A stretch of DNA of 51,400 nt from Candidatus Saccharimonadota bacterium (GTDB lineage Bacteria > Patescibacteriota > Saccharimonadia > Saccharimonadales > 2-12-FULL-41-12): contig JALHOM010000008.1 of NCBI GenBank assembly GCA_022842995.1, positions 1 through 51,400 on the forward strand, written 5' to 3'. The position numbers were made by a program, and so were the translations under genes. This document shows, one piece after another, positions 29,999 through 50,243 of this stretch. Numbering within the stretch: the stretch's first letter is position 1; the number at the start of each line of letters is the position of its first letter. Below the pieces are notes generated by a model, which had not been told where the DNA came from, did not search any database, and saw only the letters and a list, made by a program, of their open reading frames with translations.

Positions 29999-30011
29999 AG
30001 TCTGTTAAAAT

Positions 30012-30239
30012 TTGAATCACATGAAAGGTATTTCTCTCGGTAAAAGCTTACTTTTGCTAACTGTTTTTGCAGTTCTGCCCTTTCTCTTGTTTTTGGGTTG
30101 GGCAATCGTGAATGGCAGTGCCATTGCTGGTGTATTTGCGATTCTTTTTGCCCCGGTGGCTTTGGTGACTCTTGCACTCGATATCCGCCAGATATTCTTA
30201 AAAAGACTAAAGACCAAAGATAGAAGAGGCAAGAGTTAG
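30012..30239 (+). CDS. Small two-TM membrane protein
   Basis: Two hydrophobic stretches; C-terminus encoded by heptamer repeats. Confidence 0.55.
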   Translation: MNHMKGISLGKSLLLLTVFAVLPFLLFLGWAIVNGSAIAGVFAILFAPVALVTLALDIRQIFLKRLKTKDRRGKS

Positions 30240-30662
30240 GAGTCAGGAGTCAAGATTCGCCTTACGGCGAAGGAAATCGGATCTAGTAACTAGTATCTAG
30301 CAACTAGTTCCCTGGATTCTCGTAGCTCTCTTTAATCTTTCGTCTTTCGTCTAACGGCTCTTGTCTCATAACTCATGACTCTAGATTTGAAATTTGAAAT
30401 TGGAAAATAGAAATTTGAAATCAGAGTAAAGTTTAAAGACTAAAGATTAAAGGTACTGAAACAGTAGCTACTCTTATCTCCTGTCTCTAAATCAGAAAAT
30501 AGAAAATAGAAAATAGAAATTAGGATTTGGCAGACGTCAAAATAAAGCCATTGCCAACCACAACCGAATAAAACATACTCAGTTAATTCCTAATTCCTAA
30601 TTCCTAATTCCTAATTCCTAATTCCTAATTCCTAATTCCTAATTCCTAATTCCTAATTCCTA
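30202..30662 (+). repeat. Modular heptamer-based dispersed element, copy A, ending in (CTAATTC)x10
   Basis: Exact blocks shared with copies B and C; array spans 30590-30659. Confidence 0.9.
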
Positions 30663-31439
30663 CCCTCTATCATGTCCCAGTCGCGAAAGTGTCTGCGTAA
30701 GTTCTTGTTTGGTTTGGTGCGAAATGTCGATCTGGTTATGCTGCGCGATGATGTAACCTTGGATTATATGTTTAAGATGTATAGCGTCTTTGCGCCAGAG
30801 AAAGTTGATAGTGTGATGGTCTTCTGAGCTCAAGACGCGCACGACAATCGTGACTGAGCCAAAAAACGGCCCCAGAGCGACTTTGACGTTCAAGACATCT
30901 TCTATACGTATACTCATAACCTGGCTGGTGAAGAAGAAATCACGCTTGGTAATGGTTATTTTTGTTCTGTCTACTACGATGTCATCGCGGAATAATGTTA
31001 AGGGGAAAACGGTTTTTGCAGAGGCAAGAACCTCGTTAGATCGAAAGATGGTGGTCTCGAGGTCATCGAGGTGGTCCATTAGATAGAGGGCTTCCAGTTG
31101 AACGGGTTGTTGAACGATGTCTTTAACCCGTTGGCGGAGCAGATCCGGTTGCGGTAGCGTGACTTCTTGGGCTAAGAAAGCCCGAATACCGTGGTCCGTC
31201 CGTGTTGCTAGTTGGCCAACGCGCTGGTATGACTTGGTGACCAACTCACTTCTAAGACTTGGCCGAGAAGATAAAAAAACGGGAGAACCTGCTCCCGTAT
31301 ATAACATTGTTTGTGTCGTGCTCGCTGTCCCTATTGCTGCCATTTGGTGCCTCCCTTGGTCCTTGTGGTAATTTAAGTATAAACCGGCAGTGGTAGCGTA
31401 TGGCGTGATACTGCTCACACTATATGTGTGAAAATTCAT
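30660..31439 (-). CDS. Bacterial PH-like domain protein (true start uncertain)
   Basis: C-terminal FPLTLFRDDIVVDRTKITI...IEDVLNV...GPFFGSVTI pattern. Confidence 0.7.
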   Translation of the reverse strand: MNFHTYSVSSITPYATTAGLYLNYHKDQGRHQMAAIGTASTTQTMLYTGAGSPVFLSSRPSLRSELVTKSYQRVGQLATRTDHGIRAFLAQEVTLPQPDLLRQRVKDIVQQPVQLEALYLMDHLDDLETTIFRSNEVLASAKTVFPLTLFRDDIVVDRTKITITKRDFFFTSQVMSIRIEDVLNVKVALGPFFGSVTIVVRVLSSEDHHTINFLWRKDAIHLKHIIQGYIIAQHNQIDISHQTKQELTQTLSRLGHDRG

Positions 31440-31478
31440 ATATAGTTATGAGTTATAAAACCATAAGAATTATCGCAT

Positions 31479-32147
31479 ATGGCAGGCATAACTCGCGACT
31501 ACAAATCACATTTGGAAGTACGATTTGCCCGTGAACTGGCTCCTGATAAATGGCCAGCATTAGGGCGCAGTGTTTATGAAGTTGCTTCCCGGTCTTGGGC
31601 GTATCATGGGGCGCAGTGTTTATTTTTGGTTAGCCATTGGGATAGTATGCAGCCACGCTACCGTGCTCGCCCTAAGGAGGCTGAAGGTGAGGTTTTGGCT
31701 CCAGAAGTTGGTTCATTATTTAAGGTTCTACAGCATGGCTTAGGCGTAGGCGCGATGCATCGGACTCCTTGCGTTGAAATCAGACAGATTGGGTTACATC
31801 GTTCGTCGTTGATTATTGTGACGGCTCAGGAGAATACTCCCGAAGTCGAGCAAACAATTGAGGCAAAATTGGGCGCAGCAGCCTTGCAGCTAAGGCACCC
31901 GTGGTTTAGGCAGGCGTTTTCGCGGCCCAGAACTCTTGGGATACACACTCCAGATGAGCGTTTAAATTGGATGAAGAGGACTATTAAAGACAACCTTGCG
32001 ACGCGGGATCGAATAAAACAGGAACAAGCCCGTGCTCGCCTTGCCGAGATAGATGCGAAGTCGAGCCAGGGAGGGTTTCCGAGGCGACTGTCGACAACAA
32101 CGCCGGCTGCTTCAAAGGAAGACGCGACAATGTCTCTAGGCGAATAG
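31479..32147 (+). CDS. Hypothetical protein
   Basis: 222-aa ORF. Confidence 0.65.
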   Translation: MAGITRDYKSHLEVRFARELAPDKWPALGRSVYEVASRSWAYHGAQCLFLVSHWDSMQPRYRARPKEAEGEVLAPEVGSLFKVLQHGLGVGAMHRTPCVEIRQIGLHRSSLIIVTAQENTPEVEQTIEAKLGAAALQLRHPWFRQAFSRPRTLGIHTPDERLNWMKRTIKDNLATRDRIKQEQARARLAEIDAKSSQGGFPRRLSTTTPAASKEDATMSLGE

Positions 32148-32261
32148 CTCACAAGGATGATCTTGCATTTTAAAAGTCGCATGGCTTGAGTGCCTATATT
32201 TGATATAGCTTCTGCATGTTAAAATAAAAAAGTTACAATACCTAACTTGTGAAGGAATATT

Positions 32262-32777
32262 ATGGAAGAACAAGAAAATCAGCAACCTAAAGCGACTGAG
32301 ACGCGTCCGGTTGCTAAGAAAAAATCTCCAGTTGTATCAATTTTAACTACAATCATTATTATAGCTATTGCTGGAGCGATAGGTTTTTTCTTGATGGGCG
32401 GTAAAGACGAAAATAATAAAACCGTAGATACGACCACGAATAACTCCACTGTACAGACAACAACAGATAATCCAGAGCAGAAATCCACTGCACAAACCTC
32501 CGATATGGCCTCTGCGCCCACTAAAGAGCAGGTTGCCCTTCATAACAAGCAGTCCGATTGCTGGACTATCGTAGAGGGTGTCGTGTACGATATCACCGAA
32601 TATATTCCGAAACACCCTGGCGGTGAATCAATTTTGGAAGCTTGTGGAACCGATGGAACTAGCTTGTTTGCTGAGCGAAAAACGGCCGATGGCCAAAAAG
32701 TCGGATCAGGTACGCCTCATAGTAATCGTGCTGAAGGCATGCTCAAAGAATATGAAGTTGGCAAACTCGCTAACTAA
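32262..32777 (+). CDS. Membrane-anchored cytochrome b5-like heme-binding protein
   Basis: HNKQSDCWT, VYDITEYIPKHPGG and HS motifs; both His ligands present. Confidence 0.92.
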   Translation: MEEQENQQPKATETRPVAKKKSPVVSILTTIIIIAIAGAIGFFLMGGKDENNKTVDTTTNNSTVQTTTDNPEQKSTAQTSDMASAPTKEQVALHNKQSDCWTIVEGVVYDITEYIPKHPGGESILEACGTDGTSLFAERKTADGQKVGSGTPHSNRAEGMLKEYEVGKLAN

Positions 32778-32857
32778 TATTATTCCCGTATAGTTTTAAA
32801 GAATACTAAAATCACTCCGCGTGAGACTGACTTTGTCGGATTACCACTGGGGTGATT

Positions 32858-33388
32858 TTAAAAATTCTTCAAAAATTCGACGAGTTGTGAAGGAGTTATC
32901 TCGGCTTTGATAATGTAGGCGTCGGCTTCTTTTTCGACGGCAGCCCGCGTTTCATCGTCTTGTTCGAGGTTGGTTGCAATAATAATTTTACTCTTTAAGT
33001 CAGGATTTTTGCGGAGTTCATGTAGGACGTCAATTCCGAGCAGTTGCGGAATGACAATATCTAGCAAAATGATATCGTAGTCACCACTGAGCGCGCGCTC
33101 GAGACCAGCTTTACCGTCGTTGATGATGTCCGCTTCGTAGCCGGCTTTTTGGAGTGCATGCTTATAGAGATCACCAATGAAGGCTTCATCTTCGATGCAA
33201 AGTACCTTCTTGCCGCTACCACTACCGGGGTCTGACGTGACACTTGAAGCAATATCCGAGAACTCCGGTGTTTTATATAAGCTGGGCGTGGCGTCGTCGG
33301 TTACGGGCTTAGGTATGTTGTCGCTGTCTTGTTGCATAGTCTCTTCCATACTACCATTATTTGAGTTATGGGCTATCTTCCTGTTCAC
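32858..33388 (-). CDS. Single-domain response regulator (start probably 33337)
   Basis: VLCIEDE, DIILLDIVIP, YIIKAE. Confidence 0.9.
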   Translation of the reverse strand: MNRKIAHNSNNGSMEETMQQDSDNIPKPVTDDATPSLYKTPEFSDIASSVTSDPGSGSGKKVLCIEDEAFIGDLYKHALQKAGYEADIINDGKAGLERALSGDYDIILLDIVIPQLLGIDVLHELRKNPDLKSKIIIATNLEQDDETRAAVEKEADAYIIKAEITPSQLVEFLKNF

Positions 33389-33413
33389 TGTAAACTGTTC
33401 ACTGTATACTGTC
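33380..33413. repeat. Degenerate heptamer array (CTGT at a 7-bp period, x5)
   Basis: CTGT at 33381, 33388, 33395, 33402 and 33409, directly after the kinase stop codon. Confidence 0.75.
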
Positions 33414-33415
33414 TT

Positions 33416-34942
33416 TTATCTTCGTTGCATACTATGATTTTTGATCCAGCCGTGGGCTACAGGAGTAAATCCATTGCTTGCGCCGGATTTATCGGCCTCA
33501 TCGAGCTGGCTAAATGGCATGAGGGTGAAGCCGATGGTAGTGCCCTCGCCTTCCTTGGATTTGACCCAAATGTTGCCATGATGCGCCGAAATAATTTCTT
33601 TGCACAAGTATAGTCCAAGACCGCTACCGGAAATATGATGTCGATTTCGGTGGTTGCGGTAGAACCGATTGAAGAGGTTAGGAACCACGGAGTCTGGTAT
33701 GCCGACGCCGTCATCGCTCACCGTGGTTAAAACTGCTCCGTCGGTGTCGAGTTTGACTTCGATCCTAATAGGTTTTTTGTCATCTGGTGAGTATTTAATC
33801 GCGTTATCAATCAGATTGGTGATAACTTCGCCGAGGCTAATGTTGTCAATCCCGACTTTTGGTAAATTAGGCGCGACGCTGAGCGAAATTGTTTTACCGC
33901 GTACACTGGCTCTGTTTTGTGAGTTGGCAACGATAGAAGTTATATGCTCTTCCCACGAGGATTCCTGAAGCTGAAGATTAAGTTGGTTTTGGTCAACCTT
34001 CAAGACACTGAGGATGTTGGTCATAAAAGTCGTGAGGTTATCTGTCGAGGCGCCGAGTCGATCTATGTAGGTCTGGGTCTGACTATCGACTTTACCTGCC
34101 ATTTCTTGCTGCAAAGCTTCGACGTAGCCTCTCATGATGGTGAGAGGAGTTCTTATTTCGTGCACCGACAAGGCAATCATGCTGAGGGCGGTTTCTTCTT
34201 GGTCGTATTGGTCGTAATGACTGAAGAAAACTAATAAAGTTTCGATACCGCTGGGATGTTTTTGACGGTAATGAGCGGCAACATCGTAGTAGCTTTTTAC
34301 GGTGCCGTCATTGGAACTGACTTCGACTTTTTGCCATTGAGTAGTGGCGTTAATACTTTTTTGTTTGGTCTGGGCGATCCAGTCAGGTAAGGCAATGGAG
34401 TTGGACTTCATGTTAAGCAAATTAGTGAGCGGAACATCTTTCCAGGTGCCAAGCGAAAATGCACTTATGGCGGCAGTATTGGCGAAGGCGATATTGCCTT
34501 GATCATTTAAGCCCAGTACTGATACCGGCAAAGAGTCGAGAAGGTCGGAATTTTGATCTTTAACCATGGGGATATTGGCCGAAGATAAGTTCGACGATAG
34601 GTCGTAAATTTGCCTCGTGAGATTGGCTACTAGTTCACGACCGACGCCGAGCTTATCGACATTTGGCGCGGCAACTAAATGTTCGTTTGGCGAGATATGG
34701 TAAATCGCCTGCGCCAGATATTGAGTTGGTTTGATCAATAGCGCAGCCAAAACATTGCCCACGATAACAGACGCGATAATCACTACCGAAGTGACAATGA
34801 CGATAACGATCTCCCTGTCGAGCACCGTATTGGCAAGTAAAATATAGGCCGTTCCAGAGGCTAATGCTCCAGTGATTATGAGTCCAAAGACTAAATACAG
34901 GCTGAAGGTTTTTTTGAAGGAATCGAGGTGTCCACCGCTCAT
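33416..34942 (-). CDS. Membrane sensor histidine kinase (2 TM, PAS-like, HisKA, HATPase)
   Basis: VHEIRTPL, NLIDNAIKYS, DDGVGI, SGSGLGL. Confidence 0.95.
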   Translation of the reverse strand: MSGGHLDSFKKTFSLYLVFGLIITGALASGTAYILLANTVLDREIVIVIVTSVVIIASVIVGNVLAALLIKPTQYLAQAIYHISPNEHLVAAPNVDKLGVGRELVANLTRQIYDLSSNLSSANIPMVKDQNSDLLDSLPVSVLGLNDQGNIAFANTAAISAFSLGTWKDVPLTNLLNMKSNSIALPDWIAQTKQKSINATTQWQKVEVSSNDGTVKSYYDVAAHYRQKHPSGIETLLVFFSHYDQYDQEETALSMIALSVHEIRTPLTIMRGYVEALQQEMAGKVDSQTQTYIDRLGASTDNLTTFMTNILSVLKVDQNQLNLQLQESSWEEHITSIVANSQNRASVRGKTISLSVAPNLPKVGIDNISLGEVITNLIDNAIKYSPDDKKPIRIEVKLDTDGAVLTTVSDDGVGIPDSVVPNLFNRFYRNHRNRHHISGSGLGLYLCKEIISAHHGNIWVKSKEGEGTTIGFTLMPFSQLDEADKSGASNGFTPVAHGWIKNHSMQRR

Positions 34943-34962
34943 GTAATCTTAGATACTTTCTG

Positions 34963-36198
34963 CTACGGCGTATAAGTGACTTGCGAGTCGTTTTTAAGAA
35001 GAGTGATCCATGTCTGGCCAGGGTTGAGTCCAATAATCTGCCCGGCGGCGTCTGTGAAGACAATCTGTTCTTTTTCGCTGGCTTTGGTCCAGGTTCCTTT
35101 GGTGACTTGGCCATCCTGAAAGATGGTTACCGACCCGCTGCCGACAACTTGGTAGACCGAATATATCCCGTTGCGTGAATACGGGACGCTCATTGCAACC
35201 AAGACAGTCGGGCTTATTTGGACGCCGGATCTATGGTCGGTATGGGGCTGGCCAGCAAGATTTCGCTTATATGTATTGCTTGCAGCGTCGAAAGTGTATG
35301 ACGTGTTGTATAGTGCGCTCGAGATGGCCATATTAATTGATGAGGCAGTTGGTGTTTGACCTTTTTTCTCGGTTTTTCGGGTAAAGCTTTTTACGTCGCT
35401 AGTAGTATAGCCTCGTTTTTGAGAGGCTTTATCAAGTGCTGCTGTGCTGCTGTAGAGATTGTGTGGTGCGTAGCGGTCCGAGGCACGCTGGAATGCGGCG
35501 CCATTGGCTCCGTGGTCCATGTCTTTAAGCCCGAGACTATTTATTTTTGCCAATCCATCAGCGCTTCCTCCGGCATGAACGAAAACAGGGTCAAACGGGG
35601 CTGACAAAACAGCGTAATAAGGCCTAACGGAGCGGATCGGTCCAATATAATCTGGTTGTGTTTCAAGAAAAGAGGCATTGAAGCGTGTAATCCCGCCCTC
35701 GGAGATGGCTTCAAATACCACACCGGCATCTTTGAGGCCGGCTTGCGGTCGGGCTTCCGGGCTGTTTTCTATCTGTACGGACGTAACTGGTCTTTTGTTA
35801 AGCTCGGGGCTTATTTGGACGCCGGTAAGTCGTGAAGCTTCGGTGGTTGGTTTGGGCGGTGGTGTGGGAGTTGGGGTGGCTTGAACGGCTTGCGTTTTTG
35901 GTGGTTCAGGTGCGGGCTTATTGAATACAAAGGCGTAAGCTCCGCCTCCCCCGCCCAGCAGAACAGCTACAGAGGCTAGCGAGATAATCAGTTTTTGTTT
36001 TTTGGTGAGATGGCTTAACCAGCCGAAAGGATTTCGGGCATGAGGCATACTCACATGTTCGGGGACGACGACAAAGCCGTCTTGTGAGTGGTTAGAAAAA
36101 GCGTCCCTTTCGGAGCTCTGTCCTTCGTGGGGTTGGTTTTGGATTTCTTCTTTTTTATTTTGGTCCTCAAAAATAGGAGGACGGATGTCGTCTACCAT
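34963..36198 (-). CDS. DUF3048-like membrane-anchored surface protein
   Basis: IENSPEARPQAGL, EGGITRF, GPIRSVR, APHNLY; Pro-rich linker after the TM. Confidence 0.85.
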   Translation of the reverse strand: MVDDIRPPIFEDQNKKEEIQNQPHEGQSSERDAFSNHSQDGFVVVPEHVSMPHARNPFGWLSHLTKKQKLIISLASVAVLLGGGGGAYAFVFNKPAPEPPKTQAVQATPTPTPPPKPTTEASRLTGVQISPELNKRPVTSVQIENSPEARPQAGLKDAGVVFEAISEGGITRFNASFLETQPDYIGPIRSVRPYYAVLSAPFDPVFVHAGGSADGLAKINSLGLKDMDHGANGAAFQRASDRYAPHNLYSSTAALDKASQKRGYTTSDVKSFTRKTEKKGQTPTASSINMAISSALYNTSYTFDAASNTYKRNLAGQPHTDHRSGVQISPTVLVAMSVPYSRNGIYSVYQVVGSGSVTIFQDGQVTKGTWTKASEKEQIVFTDAAGQIIGLNPGQTWITLLKNDSQVTYTP

Positions 36199-36219
36199 TA
36201 CTTTATTTTACCATATGGG

Positions 36220-36400
36220 GGATTAGAAATTAGCTGATTACGTTTTATTCATTCGTGGTTGGCGATGTCTTTTTGGTATCTATCATTTTCTAATTTCAAT
36301 TTTCTGATTTAGAGACAAGAGATAAGAGTAGCTACTGTTTCAGTACCCTTAAACTTTAGTCTTTAAACTTTAGTCTTTGAACTTTACTCTGATTTCAAAT
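36220..36400 (-). repeat. Modular heptamer-based element, copy C (inverted, partial)
   Basis: 29-nt exact inverted match (36319-36347 vs 30452-30480) plus the shared right-end motif. Confidence 0.9.
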
Positions 36401-36443
36401 TTACCCTAAAATTGTGACGACCGTCACAATTTTAGGGTAAATT
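36398..36443. repeat. Perfect 21-bp inverted repeat with GACC loop
   Basis: AATTTACCCTAAAATTGTGAC-GACC-GTCACAATTTTAGGGTAAATT. Confidence 0.95.
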
Positions 36444-36538
36444 GTTGATATGTCCAAACCGGCTTATTCCGCTTGATTACAGAGGTTGGCTACATAGAAT
36501 AGATGACTCAACTAAAGAGCCAGAAGAACAAAAGAAAA

Positions 36539-36578
36539 TTACCCAATTTTTGTGACGACCGTCACAAAAATTGGGTAA
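36539..36578. repeat. Perfect 18-bp inverted repeat with GACC loop
   Basis: TTACCCAATTTTTGTGAC-GACC-GTCACAAAAATTGGGTAA. Confidence 0.95.
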
Positions 36579-36606
36579 ATAATGGCACGTAACGTTTGCA
36601 ACGAAA

Positions 36607-38037: not shown

Positions 38038-38114
38038 CTGTTAATCATAGCATAGAGCGGTTTATAAATTACTTAAAAACATAGTAGAATAATACACAAT
38101 GATAGTTCAAAGAT

Positions 38115-38588: not shown

Positions 38589-38589
38589 G

Positions 38590-43217: not shown

Positions 43218-43305
43218 GCCGCGGTGGTGGAATTGGTAGACACGCCAGACTCAAAATCTTGTGAGCTTTATGCTCGTGCCGGTTCAAGTCCGGCCCGCGG
43301 TACCA
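43218..43305 (+). tRNA. tRNA-Leu (CAA)
   Basis: GGTGGAATTGGTAGAC D-arm, CTCAAAA loop, long variable arm, GTTCAAGTC T-loop, encoded CCA. Confidence 0.93.
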
Positions 43306-43418
43306 ATGATTTCTAAATAATTAATCAGAGATTTTTTGAATTTCGTTGCTCGCACGTTTCTCAAAGTAATTTTATCGTCGGTAACATACCAACCCAGTAG
43401 TTTGGTATAGTTGACTCT

Positions 43419-44075: not shown

Positions 44076-44096
44076 GGCTGTTAATCGGAAGTAATT

Positions 44097-44702
44097 ATGG
44101 GCGAATTTAAGCGACGAAGCCATGAGCAAGAGAAGCCATCAGTTGATATTGTGCGGGCTGCACCTGAAGATGCCGAGGCGATTTGCGATATTCGTGATCG
44201 AGCTTGGCTGAAAGCCTATACGGTTGATGCGCCGGATCTTAAGATCACAGAAGAAGATGTTTTGCTGGCTGCAAAGGGTCCAGATGATAGGTTTTTTAAA
44301 AACCGCGTTGAATATTTAAAGAAGCGGCTTGCCGAAGATTCTGGCCAAAACCTCTGGTTATATGTCGCAAAAATTGACGGCAAAGTAGTTGGCTATACCG
44401 ACCCGAGTCTTGATGATCGCGGTCGGAGACGTATTGGTGCAATGTATGTTGATCCTGCTCAACAAGGCAAAGGTGTTGGCGGAAAGTTGATTCGTCAGGC
44501 GCTAGAGGCTTTAGGACGCGACCAAGATATCTACCTTGAAGTTGTTGAATACAATCAAAACGCCATTGGTTTTTATGAACATTTTGGCTTTGTAAAAACC
44601 GGCAACCCCGCACCTCCAGAAGAAGGTCGCCCAGAATACCTTGTCACCTTCCCTGAAATAGAAATGGTCCTAAAAGCCCAAAAAAAATCCCACGTCCCTT
44701 AA
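44097..44702 (+). CDS. GNAT-family acetyltransferase
   Basis: MYVDPAQQGKGVGGKL, NQNAIGFYEHFGF. Confidence 0.92.
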   Translation: MGEFKRRSHEQEKPSVDIVRAAPEDAEAICDIRDRAWLKAYTVDAPDLKITEEDVLLAAKGPDDRFFKNRVEYLKKRLAEDSGQNLWLYVAKIDGKVVGYTDPSLDDRGRRRIGAMYVDPAQQGKGVGGKLIRQALEALGRDQDIYLEVVEYNQNAIGFYEHFGFVKTGNPAPPEEGRPEYLVTFPEIEMVLKAQKKSHVP

Positions 44703-44995
44703 GCTTGTTAAAACCTTCAAAAAACCAATTCTTCACAATTTTAAAAAATTGCACCAAGACTTGCCCGTATTCCTATCTGTTATTTCAAAAATCTGCATTT
44801 TCCTCATCTGTTAAAGATCCGACCTTTTTAAATTTCGCTACTGAAGGAATTATTAAACGTCTAAAAAATCAAGCAAGGAACCTGCTTGATGCGGTGCATT
44901 ATGTCGTTGATAACTCGAAGTAGTTTAGTTATTAGCAATAGTTTTTTGCGCAGGTATGCCGTAGATCTACCTTGTTAGTAATTTTTATCGTAACT

Positions 44996-46279
44996 TTAGC
45001 CTGCTTGTTGCGAAGCAGTGTCTAGTTCTGGGATTGATTGGGGTTTGACGCCCATGGGCTGTAGTTGTGGAATATTAAGGCCAGAGAATACGGGTGCAGG
45101 TTCGGATGGGGGTGTGGTTATCGGGACTTCCTCTTTGAACGGTTTGTTGAGCATGCCAACAAGATAATTTGAAGTTTGTGATGGTGTCCCGAACATGCAG
45201 TAAACGGCATTGGGGTTCGGGTTGAAGCCGAACCGCTTGTCGAATTCCCTGATGGTTCGAGCGGATTCTTTGTTAAAAAGAGCTATTCTTTTTTTGATCT
45301 GTTTAGGATTATTTCCAAATGCTCTTCGCGTTTGTTGCAAGTACCAGCCGTCGTTTGGTCCGATCCTGGTAAGTAGCGGGTGGAACAAATAGTTCTTTTT
45401 TGTTATGGCGGAGCTACCGCTTTTAATGAAGTAACAAGGGTCGTACATCGGGGATTTAGGTACCGTTCTTACAATGTCTACAATTCCTCCTGAACCAGTA
45501 GCGCCTGTCATGAACTCTCTTCCCGCGTACACTCCTGTTGCGCTGAATGGGTTTGGATTCAGTGCTTGCGCGCCATACATGTATACGATTTCGCCACGGT
45601 TTGGTTTGCGGGTTTCATTTTTCACTGTGTCGATTGGGAACGGTTTAATTGTGCGATAACGTCTCCTTTGTTGAGGTATTGGTTGTAATCTAAGCAAGGC
45701 GACGTCGTTGTTTAACCCGCTGGGGTCGTTAGAGGTTATTGCGCCGACTACTTTAGCCAAGGGTGTCAGCATAAAATCTCTTGGGTTGGCAATATAGAGC
45801 TGATCTTTCATCTGATCGTCGAGTCTGATGCTTCCCGTTTTTCCTTGAAGGGCTCCTTCTTTAAGCCTCAAGCAATGAGTTGCTGTCTTCACCACGTCGG
45901 GGACCGTTAAGTCGGTATCGGGGTCTCTGATCGCCTCCATGGTTCCATTGCATACTTGAATGTTCTCAAAGCCATCGGAATGGTAGTTCTTGATAACTAT
46001 TGCAACGGCACTTCTTTTGAGCCTTCGGAAGGTCGCCGGTTCTTGGAATCGGCCTATGACCTCAGCACTTACATGGTTCGTAGGGCGTCCAATCCTGTCT
46101 GCTCCCCCGGGAAGTTCGATATGTATTCCAGCCGGTGCTTGTTGGGCGGCATTTGCAGGGGACTGCCCAAAAAATGCAGCCGCGCCTAACGCGCCTATTA
46201 CGGAGACAAGAGCTCTATATGGAGCATTGTTACGCCTGAGGCTAGGGTCGGCTGAAGGGTTAAGCCTTGGCATATTCAC
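44996..46279 (-). CDS. Secreted trypsin-like (S1-fold) serine protease homologue
   Basis: Signal peptide; CNGT, TATHC, NDVALLRL and KSGSS in chymotrypsin motif order. Confidence 0.65.
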   Translation of the reverse strand: MNMPRLNPSADPSLRRNNAPYRALVSVIGALGAAAFFGQSPANAAQQAPAGIHIELPGGADRIGRPTNHVSAEVIGRFQEPATFRRLKRSAVAIVIKNYHSDGFENIQVCNGTMEAIRDPDTDLTVPDVVKTATHCLRLKEGALQGKTGSIRLDDQMKDQLYIANPRDFMLTPLAKVVGAITSNDPSGLNNDVALLRLQPIPQQRRRYRTIKPFPIDTVKNETRKPNRGEIVYMYGAQALNPNPFSATGVYAGREFMTGATGSGGIVDIVRTVPKSPMYDPCYFIKSGSSAITKKNYLFHPLLTRIGPNDGWYLQQTRRAFGNNPKQIKKRIALFNKESARTIREFDKRFGFNPNPNAVYCMFGTPSQTSNYLVGMLNKPFKEEVPITTPPSEPAPVFSGLNIPQLQPMGVKPQSIPELDTASQQAG

Positions 46280-46345
46280 ACCTCAAAATAGTCTTAAAAA
46301 TACCACAAAACATCCAGATACTATATCACTAAATGCTCAAGCTTG

Positions 46346-47107
46346 TCAAAGGAGCGACGATACGACGGCTTCGTAGAGTTTATGTGGCTGCTGGATGGCC
46401 CAGGCGGCAGTCTTGCCAGATGATGACGTTGGTGTTCGGGATTCACAAACAGCGCCACGACTTACTGCCCATTGACTATCGTTGTGCGAGGTCAGAAGGA
46501 CGGCCTCGGTATGCTGTGAAATAAATATCAGGGCTTGGTGGAAGTTGCGAATCGTTATGTCATTGGTTATTGCTATCGTGCTGCCTAGTTCTATGGCGAG
46601 GCTTCTGAGCTGATCGAAGTTAAGGCACAGGACGGTTGAGCTAGGGCGGTTTAAGAATTTGCTCCACCCAGAAGCAAAGCTTTGGTAAGCGTCTTGATCA
46701 AACACCATGATCCCAGGATATTTGGTGATAAATTTTTCCAGCAGTAAACTGGTTTCGCTGTTTTTACCCAAATCACCGGCGAGCAAAACCCCGTCGGACC
46801 AGTGTGCGATATCTTGAAGTTCGGTGAGAGCTTTTTGGCCAAAGCTTCCGCTCGGCGTCGACGGCGCGTACTCGATATGTGGTAAATCTTTGGTGAGTTT
46901 GCGCAGTGAATCTGGCAGCAGTAAACGTATAGTGCCCGCTCCCGCTGTCTCTGCATGAGAAAACAGAGCAGATACATGACCAAGGTCCCCACCGCCTCCA
47001 CCGACAATCAAAAGCTTGCCTGCTCCATGAGCCGTCTCTGGTCGCGCCCACACGACGTCAGGAAACGCAGGATTGTCTGGCGTTTGGGTATTTTTATCTA
47101 TGCCCAT
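46346..47107 (-). CDS. Degenerate NAD(P)HX dehydratase (NnrD/YjeF C-domain)-like protein
   Basis: GKLLIVGG, AGAGTIRL, DGVLLAGDLG; canonical C-terminal ATP motif not recognisable. Confidence 0.7.
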   Translation of the reverse strand: MGIDKNTQTPDNPAFPDVVWARPETAHGAGKLLIVGGGGGDLGHVSALFSHAETAGAGTIRLLLPDSLRKLTKDLPHIEYAPSTPSGSFGQKALTELQDIAHWSDGVLLAGDLGKNSETSLLLEKFITKYPGIMVFDQDAYQSFASGWSKFLNRPSSTVLCLNFDQLRSLAIELGSTIAITNDITIRNFHQALIFISQHTEAVLLTSHNDSQWAVSRGAVCESRTPTSSSGKTAAWAIQQPHKLYEAVVSSLL

Positions 47108-48141
47108 ATTTCGTTAACGAGTTCAGGACCATATGTTGCTAAACTGCCGGGGCAAAGTACCCTCGATGCAGTGCGCGGGGGTTTTGGCTTCTTAGGGTCG
47201 TATTGTTGAGTCGCATCAAGCTCATGCGAAGGCAGCTCTCTATGGGTGTGAAAATCACTCACGATGGGTAGCATAAGTCCGTGTATTCTTGGTCTTACTA
47301 CTCTTCCGTTAACGAGTAGACTAGACATGCCTTTTTTAATCGCGCCTATGCCGCTTATTGCTGAAGCTATTTGAAATCGGTCTTCCGATCCAGCGGTTGC
47401 GCTGAAAGGATCAACAAGCACAATTTTATCAGGGTGCTCGGTGTTTAATAATTTGATAAAGCCGGAATCGCTGGTTGATGAAGTAGTTTGCTGTTCGCAT
47501 ATCTTCAAGATGAAAAGACCAATATCTCTACCACCTTTCTTTCTGAGAGTGTCGCGAATGTATTTATACGCATCTAGAGTTTTTTTACTCACTTTGGCAC
47601 CCGGTAAAACAGGTATTTCGAGAAAAATGGGATTATGGAGATTTGCTAATAAATCGGTTTTTTCAACCAGGCTAGCCTCTTGCTCATCGGTGCTCAGTCC
47701 GGCGATGACTCTTCTGCCAATTAGCCAGTTTTCGTCTATGAGCCTCTCCTCGAGTGCTATTGGACCTAAGTGGCGTACAACCTGACTGCAGCCGGCATGC
47801 ATGAGTTGGACATATGAGCTGGCGGTGGATTCTACTATTTCGTTGTGCTCATCTGCACTAAGGTCCTTTAGCTCGTCGTCTTTATATGATGATGGATCTT
47901 GGAGCAAAAGTATACTCGAAGGAAAATGTTGACGAATCCGTTGTCGTTCTTCGGATATTCTACTGGCGGTTACTGCCGCCTCTTTCAGGTCTGGGTTGTG
48001 TAATTGCACGGTGTGCTTAATCAGAAATACCCCGGTGCTTAATCGACCTTGAGCGCTTTCAAGAAGCGCTTGGGTAGGCGCATCTGTTTCCGTAAAAGGA
48101 AATATAGATTGTGGTCTAGCGGATTCTGTCGTTGTGTTCAT
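47098..48141 (-). CDS. Hypothetical protein, possibly a degenerate class-I DAHP synthase fold
   Basis: Spacing and partial motifs resemble AroG/F; catalytic motifs are absent. Confidence 0.5.
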   Translation of the reverse strand: MNTTTESARPQSIFPFTETDAPTQALLESAQGRLSTGVFLIKHTVQLHNPDLKEAAVTASRISEERQRIRQHFPSSILLLQDPSSYKDDELKDLSADEHNEIVESTASSYVQLMHAGCSQVVRHLGPIALEERLIDENWLIGRRVIAGLSTDEQEASLVEKTDLLANLHNPIFLEIPVLPGAKVSKKTLDAYKYIRDTLRKKGGRDIGLFILKICEQQTTSSTSDSGFIKLLNTEHPDKIVLVDPFSATAGSEDRFQIASAISGIGAIKKGMSSLLVNGRVVRPRIHGLMLPIVSDFHTHRELPSHELDATQQYDPKKPKPPRTASRVLCPGSLATYGPELVNEIWA

Positions 48142-48168
48142 CTTAATTTAAGTCGTAGGTTAGTCGTT

Positions 48169-48198
48169 AAAAAAGCCGCCTGGGTTTCGCAGGCGGCT
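48169..48198 (-). terminator. Intrinsic terminator in the 5' leader of the 48141 gene
   Basis: 9-bp stem AGCCGCCTG/CAGGCGGCT followed by TTTTT on the minus strand. Confidence 0.85.
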
Positions 48199-48264
48199 CG
48201 CTAACTTTGTTTCGATGTTATTTGCCGTATAAGTAGCCTGCTTTATCGTGAGCTAAAAAAACAA

Positions 48265-48321
48265 TTAGCGGACACGAATCGCCACTAGTTGCATCTTTAA
48301 TGCGTAAAACACAGCTCTCAT
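48265..48321 (-). CDS. Candidate 18-aa leader peptide MRAVFYALKMQLVAIRVR
   Basis: ATG 9 nt after TGGTATAAT; upstream of the terminator. Confidence 0.4.
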   Translation of the reverse strand: MRAVFYALKMQLVAIRVR

Positions 48322-48353
48322 ACTGAATATATTATACCACTTCGAGTCAAGAC

Positions 48354-49145
48354 TTAGGCAATCTCGACAGATATCGGACAGTGGTCAGAGCCGAAAACTT
48401 GGTCGTGGATAGACGCTTTGCTGACGCGATCTTTTAGGCTGCTGGATACCATGAAATAATCTATCCGCCAGCCAACGTTTCTAGCGCGGGCGTTGGCCCA
48501 GTGGGTCCACCAGGTGTAGTGCCCGTTGCCTTGGGTAAATAACCTGAATGTATCTATAAAACCCTGGTCGATCATGTTTTCGAAGCCTTCTCGCTCTTCG
48601 TTAGTAAAGCCGTGTTTACCGACATTTGGCTTGGGATTTGCCAGGTCGTCTTCGGTATGGGCCACGTTGAAGTCGCCGCAAAAAATCACCGGTTTGGTGG
48701 CCTCAAGTTGCTTCATATATTCCAAAAAGGCCTTGTCCCAGGCTTGATGTCGGAGCTTAAGACGACTGAGGTCGCCTTTGCTGTTGGGTGTATAAACAGT
48801 GACGAGGTAAAAATCTTCAAATTCGGCGGCCAGTACCCTGCCCTCTTCGTTGGGGTGGCCGTATTTGTCCTCTAGCTCGTATTTGTCGGCGATGCTTCCC
48901 GGGATATCGTTTATGACGCTGATCGGTTTAACTTTGGTAAAAATTGCTGTGCCGGAGTAACCTTTTTTGGTAGCTGAATTCCAGTATTCTTCGTATTCCG
49001 CCAGTTCCACAGGAGACTGCCCTTGCTCCGCTTTGGTTTCCTGCAAGCAAACAATATCAGGCTGCTCGTCTGCTATGAATTTCTGAAATAATTCTTTGCC
49101 CCATACCGCACGGATGCCATTGACGTTCCAAGAGTAAATTTTCAT
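48354..49145 (-). CDS. xth: Exodeoxyribonuclease III
   Basis: SWNVNGIRA, LQETK, GDFNVAH, GWRIDY, SDHCP; start ATG at 49145 preferred over 49181. Confidence 0.97.
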   Translation of the reverse strand: MKIYSWNVNGIRAVWGKELFQKFIADEQPDIVCLQETKAEQGQSPVELAEYEEYWNSATKKGYSGTAIFTKVKPISVINDIPGSIADKYELEDKYGHPNEEGRVLAAEFEDFYLVTVYTPNSKGDLSRLKLRHQAWDKAFLEYMKQLEATKPVIFCGDFNVAHTEDDLANPKPNVGKHGFTNEEREGFENMIDQGFIDTFRLFTQGNGHYTWWTHWANARARNVGWRIDYFMVSSSLKDRVSKASIHDQVFGSDHCPISVEIA

Positions 49146-49206
49146 ATGTTTATAGTAGCTGTCGTGGCAGCCAAGAAGCAAATTCTTCGTAGATATTCTT
49201 TATCAG

Positions 49207-49944
49207 ATGGGTACGCAGGAGTATAATAGAACTTTAATGACATACAAACGCGTTCTTCTCAAGCTTTCCGGCGAGCAACTAGCCGGCCAATTTGAAACAG
49301 GTATTGATCCAGACTTTGCGCACTGGATCGCCAAAGAGATAAAACAAGTCGCCGACACAGGCACGCAAGTAGTGATCATGGTTGGCGGTGGCAACTTGGT
49401 CCGTGGCGCTAACGTAGCCGGAAACGGCATTCGCCGAGTTACGGCCGACCATATGGGAATGCTGGCGACCATGATTAACGCTTTGGCTTTGACCGATATT
49501 ATGGAGTCTGAAGGTGTAAAAACACGCTGTTTAAGTAATATTTTTGCCGAGCAAGTGGCCGAGCCTTTCGTGCATCGTTTGGCTAACAAGCACCTCGAAA
49601 AAGGGCGTGTAGTAGTGGCTGCTGGGGGGATTGGTAGGCCGTACATGACTACCGATACAGCGGCAGTTGCTTTGGCTTTGGAGCTTGACTGCGAAGCTGT
49701 GCTCAAAGCCACCAAGGTTGACGGCGTCTATGACAAAGACCCTAACAAGCACGATGATGCCGTAAAATTCGATAATCTTGGCTTCGAACAAGCGGTAGCC
49801 GATGCCGATATTAAAATCATGGACAAAGCAGCCATTGGCCTGGCTATGGAACAGGGCATGAAAGTCGTTGTCTTTAACCCCATGGAAGACGGTGCTATTG
49901 CTAAGGTCGTGAATGGCAATGATATTGGAACGACCATCTCGTAA
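49207..49944 (+). CDS. pyrH: Uridylate kinase
   Basis: RVLLKLSGE, VGGGN, DHMGMLAT, TTDTAA, DGVYDKDP. Confidence 0.97.
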   Translation: MGTQEYNRTLMTYKRVLLKLSGEQLAGQFETGIDPDFAHWIAKEIKQVADTGTQVVIMVGGGNLVRGANVAGNGIRRVTADHMGMLATMINALALTDIMESEGVKTRCLSNIFAEQVAEPFVHRLANKHLEKGRVVVAAGGIGRPYMTTDTAAVALALELDCEAVLKATKVDGVYDKDPNKHDDAVKFDNLGFEQAVADADIKIMDKAAIGLAMEQGMKVVVFNPMEDGAIAKVVNGNDIGTTIS

Positions 49945-50243
49945 ACTAGCTATGAGCTAGTAGCTAGCAGTGAGTCATGAGACATGAGTTATGAGTTTAG
50001 ATTCGCCTCCGGCGAAAGGAGATAATAACTTGTAGCTCTCTTTAATCTTTCGTCTATAATTTTTAGGCTTTCGTCTGTCGATTCTTATCTCTTGACTCTT
50101 AACTCATGACTCTAGTTCAGAAATTTGAAATTGGCATTAACCCAAAAAGTCGCTATTGCCAACCACCAATGGATAAAACATACTCAGCTAGTTTCTAGTT
50201 TCTAGTTTCTAGTTTCTAGTTTCTAGTTTCTAGTTTCTAGTTT
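49945..50243 (+). repeat. Modular heptamer-based element, copy B, ending in (CTAGTTT)x8
   Basis: Exact blocks of 24, 16, 15, 12 and 15 nt shared with copy A; array spans 50188-50243. Confidence 0.9.

What the first reader, a model, noticed from the sequence alone, without database searches (positions are those of the whole stretch)
30202..50243. Three-copy modular dispersed element built from heptamer units with a conserved right-end motif
Seen: copies at 30202-30662 (A), 49945-50243 (B) and, inverted, 36220-36400 (C). A and B share, in order: GAGTYAK-type heptamers, a TTCGCC/GGCGAA hairpin, GTAGCTCTCTTTAATCTTTCGTCT (24 nt exact), TAACTCATGACTCTAG and GAAATTTGAAATTGG. A and C share a 29-nt exact block and differ by one heptamer unit. 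All three end in ATYGCCAACCAC-N4-GRATAAAACRTAMTCAG followed by a heptamer array whose unit differs per copy: (CTAATTC)10, (CTAGTTT)8 and CTAATTT-CTAATCC. The 5' heptamers are complementary to internal ones, so the element can fold back. There are no terminal inverted repeats, target duplications or transposase. Inference: a non-autonomous element family in which 7-nt periodicity, not unit sequence, is conserved, possibly produced by a templated or slippage synthesis mechanism.
Basis: partly seen in the sequence, partly recalled or inferred. Interest (0 to 1): 0.8.

Follow-up and report, generated by a model that had tools for sequence, protein, structure and literature searches.

The report
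Heptamer-array mosaic intergenic repeat family
The three flagged stretches are real copies of a repeat family found only in this species: non-coding, fold-back DNA built from runs of 7-base units that fills gene-end spacers in a tiny (about 1.1 Mb) uncultured bacterium, a more elaborate version of the unexplained heptamer repeats known from cyanobacteria and Xanthomonas.

Summary

**What it is.** A, B and C belong to a family with 13 copies of the left hairpin module and 12 copies of the right "core" in this 1.11-Mb genome. The core was not found in 400 other genomes of the order or in three public contig collections. Each copy is an ordered mosaic of short heptamer arrays and their complements, plus two unique modules: a GC hairpin and a 65-73 nt core that looks like a sigma-70 promoter.

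**Evidence it is real and recent.**
- Independent assemblies from four samples reproduce A and B.
- A co-occurring strain differs by 7- and 14-nt indels.
- Relatives have 3-165 nt spacers with no element at two of the sites.
- Copies align colinearly over about 270 nt and prefer spacers between convergent genes.

**Best reading.** A non-autonomous, BIME/STRR-like structured repeat that is copied as a unit, then remodelled by unit slippage and exchange between arrays. No reverse transcriptase and no cognate transposase was found.

**New lead.** The genome's only PF05635 (23S-rRNA-IVS-type four-helix-bundle) gene is bracketed by the same D/D' heptamers. In 49 of 70 metagenomic loci (62 of 70 at the looser cut-off), genes of this family sit between complementary arms with 7-nt periodicity.

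**Unresolved.** Function and copying mechanism are inferred, not shown.

The parts
30199..30662 (+). Copy A, long form. It fills the whole spacer between the small ORF 30012-30239 (+) and ORF 30660-31439 (-).
   Evidence: contigs of independent runs are identical over 29800-30579.
30202..30252 (+). Copy A, left arrays. Module A (AAAGACT/AAAGACC/AAAGATA) is followed by module B (GAGTYAW type). These arrays also encode the last roughly 12 codons and the stop codon of ORF 30012-30239.
   Evidence: TRF; ORF list.
30256..30271 (+). hp1, the conserved GC hairpin TTCGCC-TTAC-GGCGAA. It has 13 copies in the genome, always preceded by GAGTYAW units.
30281..30308 (+). Module C: self-complementary CTAGTAA/AGCTAGT-type heptamers.
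30322..30384 (+). 24-nt block shared exactly with B, then A' units (TCTTTAA/TCTTTCG, complement of module A), then B' units (CTCWTRA, complement of module B).
   Evidence: inverted repeat I18, 30330-30347 against 30435-30452, 94% complementary.
30385..30530 (+). D array (GAAATTW), a second A array (30423-30452), hairpin hp2 within the 29-nt block shared with C (30452-30480), a second B' array, and a second D array (30489-30523).
30518..30590 (+). Core module of copy A. It contains the right-end motif 30550-30582, read as TTGCCA (30551-30556), 17 nt, CATACT (30574-30579).
   Evidence: Promoter scan; profile R1 score 69 bits; conservation table.
30584..30662 (+). D' array, (TAATTCC) x 11.3, the complement of GGAATTA. 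The stop codon of the converging ORF 30660-31439 lies in its last unit.
49945..50244 (+). Copy B, short form. It fills the whole spacer between pyrH (49207-49944, +) and a LigT-like gene (50237-50815, -). Module order: C-type units 49945-49969, B units 49970-49999, hp1 50002-50016, 24-nt block 50032-50055, B' 50083-50115, D 50120-50134.
   Evidence: Empty site in congener G004, where the two stop codons are about 3 nt apart.
50122..50195 (+). Core module of copy B. Motif 50155-50187, read as TTGCCA (50156-50161), 17 nt, CATACT (50179-50184).
   Evidence: 74 bits.
50188..50244 (+). D' array, (CTAGTTT) x 8.1. The last unit supplies the final codons and the stop of the converging LigT-like gene.
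36220..36402 (-). Copy C, a truncated right part of the long form. It holds an A array (36349-36390), hp2, B', D, the core (36226-36295, motif 36234-36266) and two D' units. It lies in the gltX-to-DUF3048 spacer and has no fold-back on its own.
   Evidence: The spacer is 29-165 nt and free of heptamers in six relatives, against 408 nt here.

Best explanation
A, B and C are members of a young, species-specific family of non-coding, non-autonomous composite repeats, each about 180-470 bp long.

**Anatomy.** Each copy is an ordered mosaic of short tandem arrays of a few heptamer families and, further along, their reverse complements:
- A = AAAGAYT, B = GAGTYAW, C = AGCTAGT (self-complementary), D = GAAATTW.
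- Two unique modules are interleaved with the arrays: the GC hairpin hp1, and a 65-73 nt core.
- The result is a set of nested inverted pairs (B..B', A'..A, D-core-D') that fold a single strand of DNA or RNA into a long branched hairpin. Because the stems are made of repeated units, they still pair after whole-unit gains or losses.

**Shown**
1. The composite is copied as a unit into very short spacers at gene ends, preferentially between converging genes.
2. It is absent from the same sites in relatives.
3. Arrays then gain and lose whole 7-nt units.
4. Modules are reshuffled or inverted between copies.

**Inferred**
- Array length changes arise by replication slippage.
- Mosaicism arises by recombination or template switching between arrays of the same unit at different loci.
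- When transcribed as the tail of the flanking genes, the fold-backs act like REP/BIME elements: 3'-end structures, or double-stranded RNA substrates for RNase III. Otherwise they are tolerated selfish DNA.
- Because the arrays carry stop codons in every frame, they simply re-terminate the genes they abut.

The enzyme that copies the element to new sites is unknown.
For: **Family size and specificity**
- 9 close and 3 diverged cores, and 13 hp1 modules.
- Profile R1 gives 12 hits of 46-81 bits in the own genome and no more than 20.8 bits in 400 other genomes of the order.
- No match in genome, metagenome or viral contig collections, in phages or plasmids, or in Rfam at gathering score.

**Copied as a unit**
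- Copies C1, C7b, C9, C18 and B align colinearly over about 270 nt.
- Cores are up to 97-100% identical.

**Empty sites**
- In G004 the pyrH and LigT stop codons are about 3 nt apart.
- The gltX-DUF3048 spacer is 29-165 nt and free of heptamers in six relatives, against 408 nt here.

**Location**
- 17 of 37 occupied spacers are convergent, against 174 of 1061 in the background (odds ratio 4.7, p = 1.7e-5).

**Unit-step change**
- -14 nt at 30396, -7 nt at 30494 and +AGCTGTG at 49947 in the strain of run X4.

**Mosaicism**
- The core is inverted relative to hp1 at C8:54509-54580.
- The core is absent at C3:29504-29763.
- There is a tandem duplication on contig C7.

**Folding**
- 12 of 14 copies fold with z = -3 to -12 against shuffles.

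**Not coding and no cognate enzyme**
- The short ORF in the core is not conserved (my own reading).
- No RVT_1 match.
- The Y1 genes carry other, private palindromes.
Against: - No RNA data exist for this organism (one search found DNA runs only), so every RNA-level function is inferred.
- No copying enzyme, target-site duplication or fixed left boundary was found, so "copied as a unit" rests on colinearity and empty sites only.
- The hairpins are not followed by T-runs, so they are not canonical intrinsic terminators.
- The core keeps a promoter-like layout in all 12 copies. A purely structural or selfish reading does not explain that.
- Folding shows no consistent strand bias, so it does not say whether the DNA or the RNA form matters.
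- Gene calls are my own crude ORF calls.
Confidence: 0.6

Rival explanations
1. The core is a working outward-facing sigma-70 promoter, and the element is a mobile promoter cassette. It would start transcripts in the first units of the D' array. These would be antisense RNAs against the 3' end of the converging neighbour or, in tandem spacers, the mRNA of the next gene.
For: - TTGCCA, 16-17 nt, CATACT/CATAAT is kept in all 12 copies, while the middle of the spacer varies.
- Column identity is 0.90 for the -35 hexamer, 0.93 for the -10 hexamer and 0.85 overall for the spacer, falling to 0.5-0.6 at motif positions 13-17.
- In copy C and in C9:32474-32546 the core points at the 5' end of the next gene, 28 and 108 nt away.
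- By analogy, the PF05635 cassette has its own extended -10 just inside the left arm.
Against: - 9-10 of 12 cores point at the 3' end of a converging gene. This follows from the convergent location and gives no sense target.
- The DUF3048 gene downstream of copy C keeps its own TGnTAAAAT -10, as its relatives do.
- The copies are young, so conservation says little about selection.
- In one copy the core is inverted inside the element.
- The promoter scan of the region found no more sites than shuffles (12 against 10.3).
- There are no RNA data.
Confidence: 0.2
2. The mosaics are gene-less, non-autonomous relatives of PF05635 (S23p/IVP four-helix-bundle) cassettes. Such a cassette is a small gene held between complementary heptamer arms, like an rRNA intervening sequence. 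D-core-D' would be the same frame with the gene replaced. The family would depend on, or derive from, the single PF05635 cassette between dnaN and recF.
For: - The only PF05635 gene (C16:19883-20251) is bracketed by TAGAAAT.. and ..AATTTCT arrays. These match D/D' modules at 30/32, 26/27 and 21/21 positions.
- Twelve of 13 PF05635 loci from eight other genomes of the class, plus this genome's own, have complementary arms at or above the 99th percentile of control genes (p = 1e-9). Eleven more show the same by eye.
- In 70 metagenomic loci, 49 exceed the 99th percentile of permuted pairs (p = 1e-31). Arm self-identity is 0.63 at lag 7 against 0.23-0.37 at other lags.
- Within the genus, D-type arrays occur only in the two PF05635-positive genomes: G000 has 85 and G004 has 23, while the others have 0-3.
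- PF05635 is present in 6 of 7 genomes with GAGTYAW arrays against 89 of 294 without (p = 0.005).
Against: - The core has no similarity to any PF05635 cassette.
- There are no PF05635 pseudogene remnants in the genome.
- This genome has the highest heptamer load but only one PF05635 gene. G258 has ten such genes and no GAGTYAW arrays.
- Arms of other cassettes are private, not dispersed.
- The protein has no known enzymatic activity.
- The associations are not corrected for phylogeny.
Confidence: 0.15
3. A REP/REPIN-type system. One of the five Y1 (HUH, RAYT-like) transposases would recognise the hp1 hairpin and move the element as single-stranded DNA.
For: - There are five PF01797 matches of 131-226 aa with HUH and YxxxNP-type motifs.
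- Four or more such genes occur in 5 of 7 genomes with GAGTYAW arrays against 0 of 20 others (p = 3e-4).
- hp1 is a conserved GC hairpin with variable loops.
Against: - Each of the five Y1 genes has its own palindrome or repeat in its flanks (on both sides in four), and none resembles hp1.
- One of those palindromes forms its own gene-less doublet at C12:~1840-1975. The Y1 genes therefore appear to serve other repeats.
- hp1 lacks the GTAG/CGTC tag of REPs (PMC3733652).
- Copy C and the core-only parts spread without hp1.
Confidence: 0.07
4. The arrays are DNA binding sites for a protein that reads one heptad per protomer, as plasmid omega/ParB-type repressors do on 7-bp iterons. The element would be a nucleoid or regulatory landmark.
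For: - Strict 7-bp spacing of a few unit families.
- Arrays in both orientations.
Against: - No candidate protein was identified.
- Units differ between arrays and genomes.
- Array length varies between strains.
- Placement at gene 3' ends rather than at promoters.
Confidence: 0.05
5. Assembly or binning artefact.
For: Perfect arrays longer than the assembler's word size break contigs.
Against: - Four runs give identical contigs across the unique parts and junctions of A and B.
- A second study (X5, 2015) also holds the organism.
- Copies sit on many contigs, next to ordinary housekeeping genes of this lineage.
Confidence: 0.01

Closest known systems
STRR (short tandemly repeated repetitive heptanucleotide sequences) of heterocystous cyanobacteria; Calothrix PCC 7601, as cited in PMC4692102, details from my own knowledge
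   Same: - Dispersed intergenic tandem arrays of several different 7-nt units.
- Lineage-specific.
- Function and origin unknown.
   Different: - Here the arrays are joined in a fixed order with their complements and with two unique modules, and the whole composite is copied.
- The host is a roughly 1.1-Mb CPR-type genome.
- I found no paper containing both "Saccharibacteria" and "heptamer".
GGGAATC (Xanthomonas) and GGGGAYT (Nostoc) heptamer repeats (Rehm et al. 2015, PMC4692102); TAACTGA repeats of Beggiatoaceae, cyanobacteria and Bacteroidetes (MacGregor 2015, PMC4679880)
   Same: - Heptamer simple-sequence repeats over-represented in non-coding DNA.
- Variable unit number.
- Placed close to gene ends.
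- Patchy phylogenetic distribution.
   Different: - Those are single-unit arrays, G-rich and quadruplex-forming in Xanthomonas and Nostoc, and placed just upstream of start codons in Beggiatoaceae.
- Here the units are AT-rich, several unit families occur in each element, they are arranged as inverted pairs, and they prefer spacers between convergent genes.
BIMEs (bacterial interspersed mosaic elements built from REP/PU units) and REPIN-RAYT systems (PMC3116915, PMC3733652; BIME details from my own knowledge)
   Same: - Extragenic, non-coding mosaics of palindromic units in alternating orientation with conserved linkers.
- Located at 3' ends and between convergent genes.
- Form RNA and DNA hairpins.
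   Different: - The building blocks are heptamer arrays, not 20-40 bp REP palindromes with a GTAG/CGTC tag.
- No RAYT gene is flanked by the element's own hairpin.
BOX elements of Streptococcus pneumoniae (boxA, boxB repeated n times, boxC; from my own knowledge)
   Same: - Modular and non-autonomous.
- An internal module varies in copy number.
- Strong predicted folding.
- No known transposase.
   Different: - The repeated BOX module is about 45 bp, not 7 bp.
- There is no sequence similarity.
ORF-bearing 23S rRNA intervening sequences encoding S23p (Coxiella burnetii IVS, PMC4990558)
   Same: - Complementary arms bracket a central module.
- The one PF05635 gene of this genome is framed by the same D/D' heptamers as the core.
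- In Coxiella the arms form an RNase III substrate.
   Different: - The elements studied here carry no gene, are not in rRNA, and their core is unrelated to PF05635 cassettes.
- Excision was not tested.
MITEs
   Same: - Small, non-autonomous, multi-copy and structured.
- Present or absent at orthologous sites.
   Different: - No shared terminal inverted repeats.
- No detectable target-site duplication.
- The left boundary is variable.
- There is no parent insertion sequence.

Membership tests
Heptamer SSR / STRR-type repeats | Tandem head-to-tail arrays of 7-nt units, dispersed in non-coding DNA | tested here: met
   174 period-7 TRF arrays. Lag-7 islands cover 9.4 kb against at most 2.7 kb for other lags.
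Heptamer SSR / STRR-type repeats | Unit number varies between strains in whole-unit steps | tested here: met
   -14 nt, -7 nt and +7 nt in contigs of run X4.
MITE | Terminal inverted repeats shared by all copies | tested here: not met
   Left ends differ between copies (A-type, C-type or D-type arrays). The right end is an array of variable unit and length.
MITE | Target-site duplication | tested here: inconclusive
   None is visible at A, B or C. The empty sites in relatives are too diverged (58-66% and 78% protein identity of the flanking genes) to define junctions.
MITE | Related autonomous insertion sequence with matching ends in the genome | tested here: not met
   No RVT_1 match. The Y1 genes have unrelated private palindromes. 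Other transposase families were not searched.
REP / REPIN-RAYT | A 20-40 bp imperfect palindrome with a GTAG or CGTC tag at one end (PMC3733652) | tested here: not met
   hp1 is a 6-bp stem preceded by GAGTTAAGA, with no tag at the foot of the stem.
REP / REPIN-RAYT | A cognate RAYT gene flanked by the same repeat | tested here: not met
   All five PF01797 genes are flanked by other palindromes.
BIME-like mosaic (architecture only) | Alternating-orientation palindromic units joined by conserved linkers; extragenic, with a 3'-end bias | tested here: met
   Module order. Convergent-spacer enrichment, odds ratio 4.7. This is a resemblance in design, not homology.
S23p/PF05635 IVS-type cassette | Complementary arms bracketing the insert | tested here: met
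   D and D' arrays bracket the core. The same arms bracket the genome's PF05635 gene.
S23p/PF05635 IVS-type cassette | A PF05635 ORF, or its remnant, inside the arms | tested here: not met
   hmmsearch of the six-frame translation finds only the intact gene on C16. The core has no similarity to the cassettes.
S23p/PF05635 IVS-type cassette | Excision of the arm stem by RNase III | not testable with these tools
   No RNA runs exist for this organism.
Any Rfam RNA family | Match at gathering score | tested here: not met
   Only two tRNAs in the window. At E <= 1 there is only a chance long-hairpin hit to MIR812, 35 bits against a gathering score of 80.

The most novel reading that the evidence does not exclude
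Heptamer-array repeats and PF05635 (S23p/IVP, TIGR02436-type four-helix-bundle) genes may be two faces of one widespread selfish system.

- The small gene travels between complementary arms made of tandem 7-nt units. Here this held for 49 of 70 metagenomic loci at the 99th percentile of permuted controls, and for 12 of 13 Saccharimonadales-type loci.
- Gene-less mosaics such as A, B and C would be its non-autonomous offspring or by-products.
- In this reading the four-helix-bundle protein, a relative of the Avd protein of diversity-generating retroelements, binds or chaperones the repeat stem.
- The arms would be written or kept matched by a fold-back copying step.

If true, this would explain both the long-unexplained excess of heptamer repeats in bacteria (STRR, GGGAATC) and the function of a very common orphan protein family.
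Probability: 0.12. Interest if true: 0.85.

Novelty: new variant of a known kind. Interest (0 to 1): 0.55.

Why it matters
**The known puzzle.** Heptamer tandem repeats have been known in cyanobacteria since 1990 (my own knowledge) and in Xanthomonas and Beggiatoaceae since 2015 (PMC4692102, PMC4679880). No origin or function has been established.

**What this genome adds.**
- An extreme and clean case in a minimal genome: about 0.85% of the DNA, with one young family whose copies can be ordered.
- Empty sites in sister species.
- Unit-step polymorphism between co-occurring strains.
- Repeated-unit stems that tolerate slippage, and re-termination of genes by the arrays.

**A concrete handle.** The element is linked to the PF05635 four-helix-bundle gene family, which I found to be generally framed by complementary arms with 7-nt periodicity. 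The papers I could search mention these genes only as inserts in cas loci or in rRNA (PMC3936711, PMC4990558), and I found no description of such arms there. This turns a descriptive oddity into testable hypotheses: protein binding, RNase III processing and promoter activity.

**Practical point.** In ultra-small CPR genomes, where every spacer is short, a repeat that fills spacers and supplies stop codons, and possibly promoters, also matters for annotation.

Tried and rejected
1. **Small ORF in the core.** The reverse strand reads MFYSVVVGN.., but length and frame differ between copies (14, 18 and about 40 codons; my reading). Rejected.
2. **Known RNA family.** None found.
3. **Phage or plasmid origin.** No match.
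4. **Reverse-transcriptase or DGR-type synthesis.** No RVT_1 in the genome.
5. **Y1/RAYT link.** The genes carry other, private palindromes.
6. **Core as a remnant of a PF05635 cassette.** No similarity and no pseudogene fragments.
7. **Homology to the 32 Clostridia/Eubacteriales loci found with GAGTTAAGATTCGCC-N3-4-GGCGA.** Those are arrays of 21-22 nt units (GAGTTAAGAT plus a variable GC hairpin) without plain heptamer arrays. Only one module is alike, so I did not pursue this as homology.
8. **Strand asymmetry of folding, to decide between RNA and DNA.** No consistent bias.
9. **Covariation between D and D' units across copies.** None. D stays GAAATTW while D' is CTAATTY or CTAGTTT, and pairing survives through G-U pairs and one mismatch per unit (my reading).
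10. **Run X5 as a source of an empty allele.** It holds the same organism at very low depth and is uninformative.
11. **Canonical intrinsic terminators in the elements.** No T-runs follow the hairpins.
12. **First literature search.** The term "STRR" was swamped by an exercise trial acronym. Elhai et al. 2008 is not held in the library.

Full report

Yes, and at the stated coordinates.
These are the 24-mer at 30322/50032, the 16-mer at 30369/50100, the 15-mer at 30389/50120, and an exact 29-mer shared by A and inverted C.
- The repeat finder links A and C by a 92-nt inverted match at 93% complementarity.
- The right-end motif ATYGCCAACCAC-N4-GRATAAAACRTAMTCAG occurs three times in the window, against zero in 100 dinucleotide-preserving shuffles.
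- TRF reports perfect arrays (TAATTCC) x 11.3 and (CTAGTTT) x 8.1 directly after the motif.
- A and B fold far better than shuffles (z = -3.2 and -3.95).
- C is only the right-hand part of the long form and has no fold-back of its own (z = -0.7).

**2. Not an artefact**

The window is contig C8 of a 1.11-Mb, 30-contig genome at 46% GC, about 96% complete.
- Its relatives across the class have genomes of 0.4-2.2 Mb. Earlier notes of this scan call it Saccharibacteria/Saccharimonadales; I did not verify the name.
- Four drinking-water metagenome runs and one older run from another study hold the sequence.
- Their independently built contigs reproduce 29800-30579 and 49876-50190 without a single difference.
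- Contigs break only inside the long perfect arrays, so array lengths remain unverified.
- A second strain, in run X4, differs by -14 nt at 30396, -7 nt at 30494 and an inserted AGCTGTG at 49947. These are whole heptamer units.

**3. The family**

Across the genome the motif has nine close copies and three diverged ones.
- A sequence profile of the 73-nt core (R1) scores these 12 at 46-81 bits. Nothing in 400 other genomes of the order scores above 20.8 bits.
- Exact-pattern scans of 185,579 species genomes, the JGI metagenome contigs and IMG/VR found nothing.
- The left hairpin module, (GAGTYAW)n-AAGATTCGCC-N3-4-GGCGAA-AGG-(AGCTAGT)n, has 13 copies (plus copy B).

Module order in the short form (C1, C7b, C9, C18, B):
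- [C- or D-type units] - B(GAGTYAW)n - hp1 - C(AGCTAGT)n - B'(CTCWTRA)n - D(GAAATTW)n - core - D'(CTAATTY/CTAGTTT)n.
- These copies align colinearly over about 270 nt.
- The long form (A, C5, C16) adds an A'(TCTTTAA)..A(AAAGAYT) pair, a second hairpin and second B' and D arrays.

The family is a mosaic, not a rigid element:
- One copy lacks the core (C3:29504-29763).
- One has the D-core unit inverted relative to hp1 (C8:54509-54580).
- Contig C7 carries a tandem duplication.

Heptamers are a genome-wide habit:
- 174 period-7 TRF arrays.
- 81 lag-7 islands covering 9.4 kb, against 0.4-2.7 kb for lags 5, 6 and 8-10.

**4. Where the copies sit, and what relatives have there**

With my own crude ORF calls, 17 of 37 spacers holding an island of at least 60 nt lie between converging genes. 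The background is 174 of 1061 (odds ratio 4.7, p = 1.7e-5).

The elements fill the spacer from stop codon to stop codon:
- The A module encodes the last codons and the stop of ORF 30012-30239.
- The last D' units supply the stops of ORF 30660-31439 and of the LigT-like gene 50237-50815.
- Because 7 and 3 share no factor, an array meets a stop in any frame within seven codons.

Orthologous sites in relatives are empty:
- In congener G004, pyrH and the LigT-like gene converge with about 3 nt between their stops (L046).
- The gltX-DUF3048 spacer is 29-165 nt and free of heptamers in G001, G002, G004, G005, G007 and G014. Here it is 408 nt.

So the copies were gained in this lineage.

**5. What the core looks like**

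It reads as TTGCCA, 17 nt, CATACT.
- All 12 copies keep both hexamers and a 16-17 nt spacing, while the middle of the spacer varies. This is what a promoter would show.
- However, the copies are young.
- Nine or ten of 12 cores point at the 3' end of a converging gene. That follows automatically from the convergent location.
- Only two clearly point at a downstream 5' end.
- Several copies also carry TTGGCA..N19-21..TGCCAA around the left part of the core (my reading).
- A short reverse-strand ORF is not conserved.

No RNA run exists, so promoter activity is open.

**6. Search for a machine**

- No reverse transcriptase was found.
- There are five Y1/HUH (PF01797, RAYT-like) genes. Each is bracketed by its own private palindromes, none like hp1. 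One of those palindromes forms a gene-less doublet of its own inside another heptamer mosaic at C12:~1840-1975.
- Y1 genes are more numerous in genomes that have GAGTYAW arrays: four or more in 5 of 7, against 0 of 20 others. This may only reflect general richness in mobile DNA.

**7. The four-helix-bundle lead**

In this genome:
- There is exactly one PF05635 gene, inserted between dnaN and recF.
- It is framed by TAGAAATTAGAAAATAGAAATTCGGAATTAG on the left and AATTTCTAATTTCTATTTCCTAATTTCT on the right.
- These are the same D/D' units that frame the core, matching at 30/32, 26/27 and 21/21 positions.

In other genomes:
- In 13 PF05635 loci from this genome and eight other genomes of the class, arm complementarity is at or above the 99th percentile of 1035 control genes in 12 cases (Mann-Whitney p = 1.3e-9). 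Eleven further loci show the same by eye.
- In 70 usable metagenomic loci found with a protein profile, 49 exceed the 99th and 62 the 95th percentile of permuted arm pairs (p = 1e-31).
- Self-identity within the arms is 0.63 at lag 7, against 0.23-0.37 at lags 4-6 and 8-11.
- Some arms are GGGACTA/GGGATTA arrays, like the G-rich heptamers described in Nostoc and Xanthomonas (PMC4692102).
- In the genus, D-type arrays occur only in the two PF05635-positive genomes. G000 has 85 and G004 has 23; the others have 0-3. G004 is not the closest relative by pyrH identity.
- PF05635 is present in 6 of 7 genomes with GAGTYAW arrays, against 89 of 294 without (p = 0.005).

Against a direct parent-offspring relation:
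- The core is unrelated to any cassette.
- There are no pseudogene remnants.
- This genome has only one such gene.
- Arms of other cassettes are private.

The papers I could search mention these genes as inserts in cas loci and in rRNA (PMC3936711, PMC4990558), and I found no mention of heptamer arms. My search was limited.

**8. Comparison with what is known**

- The phenomenon belongs with heptamer simple-sequence repeats: STRR, GGGAATC/GGGGAYT (PMC4692102) and TAACTGA (PMC4679880).
- In design it belongs with mosaic palindromic repeats such as BIMEs and BOX elements.
- It fails the defining tests for a MITE: no shared terminal repeats and no parent insertion sequence.
- It fails the tests for REP/REPIN-RAYT: no tagged palindrome and no RAYT flanked by it.
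- Short GAGTYAW arrays, often as inverted pairs at gene junctions and once inside tsaD, occur patchily in a few other genomes of the order and class.
- Congener G004 has only simple 3-5-unit arrays.
- The composite described here is therefore an elaborate, species-specific variant.
- I found no paper containing both "Saccharibacteria" and "heptamer". Earlier agents of this scan have reported similar mosaics in other Saccharibacteria genomes. I treated those notes as leads and re-tested them.

**9. Verdict**

- This is a real, recent, lineage-specific family of heptamer-array mosaics.
- Shown: the anatomy, the copy number, species specificity, gain relative to relatives, the convergent-spacer preference, unit-step polymorphism and strong fold-back.
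- Inferred: slippage and inter-array exchange as the remodelling processes, a REP-like RNA or DNA hairpin role, possible promoter activity of the core, and any relation to PF05635 cassettes.

Noticed in passing
window 36398-36443 and 36535-36580: Two long perfect palindromes, AATTTACCCTAAAATTGTGACG/CGTCACAATTTTAGGGTAAATT and a 19+19 variant, lie 138 nt apart start to start and bracket about 95 nt of non-coding DNA. They sit in the gltX-DUF3048 spacer directly next to copy C. The design looks the same as the twin-palindrome cassettes around small genes elsewhere in this genome.
   Followed up: partly
G000 C16:19820-20293 (outside the window); L070-L082, L099-L111, L122-L201: PF05635 (23S rRNA IVS-type four-helix-bundle) genes are almost always framed by locus-specific complementary arms made of 3-8 tandem heptamers, and they sit between operon genes. 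Examples: dnaN|recF in three different genera, atpG|atpD, and a site immediately downstream of a probable efp gene. I could not find this described in the papers I could search.
   Followed up: yes
G000 C14:3870-4478, C4:56710-57390, C18:10296-10721, C11:42451-43074, C3:14146-14796; C12:~1840-1975: There are five RAYT-like Y1 transposase genes, each bracketed by its own private palindrome. The palindrome of the C14 gene recurs as a gene-less inverted doublet (REPIN-like) nested inside a heptamer mosaic on C12.
   Followed up: partly
L010-L041 (gut Clostridia/Eubacteriales/Oscillospiraceae MAGs): These loci hold arrays of 21-22 nt units, each GAGTTAAGAT plus a GC hairpin whose stem differs from unit to unit. 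They often end in an AATTTCCGC..GCGGAAATT hairpin and occur many times per genome. They share the GAGTTAAGATTCGCC..GGCGA module with hp1 of this family.
   Followed up: partly
window 11934-12111: Three tandem units of about 80 nt, each ending in CCCTCTGGAGGTTCTT. Two of them contain a hairpin (AAAAAGCCAAGCCCTTGGCTTTTT and a compensated variant, AGAATGGCAAGCCCTTGCCATTCT). They lie just upstream of ORF 12180-12761.
   Followed up: no
window 5391-5562: A convergent spacer with two 37-nt direct repeats (5391-5464), CGTGAAAATC x 2 (5483-5502) and a perfect (CTAACGG) x 5.3 array (5526-5562). This heptamer unit is not used in the mosaics.
   Followed up: no
L056 (G122:C2:~32121-32150) and L202 (G004:C1:~690380-690460): Heptamer arrays lie inside coding regions of conserved genes in relatives: (GAGTCAA) x 4 within a probable tsaD gene (judged from the flanking sequence), and an inverted D..D' pair within what looks like truB.
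   Followed up: no
G000 C21:2300-2490 and C24:1393-1486: Further D..X..D' frames without the core. X is about 125 nt of unique non-coding sequence on C21 and only 17 nt on C24.
   Followed up: no
L085 (G320:C7:21350-22050): In another family of the order, three repeats of (CTCWTGW)n-CATTGGCAYCAAAAAAGCGCC-loop-GGCGC. On the opposite strand these read as GC hairpin plus T-run, an intrinsic-terminator shape, embedded in heptamer arrays.
   Followed up: no
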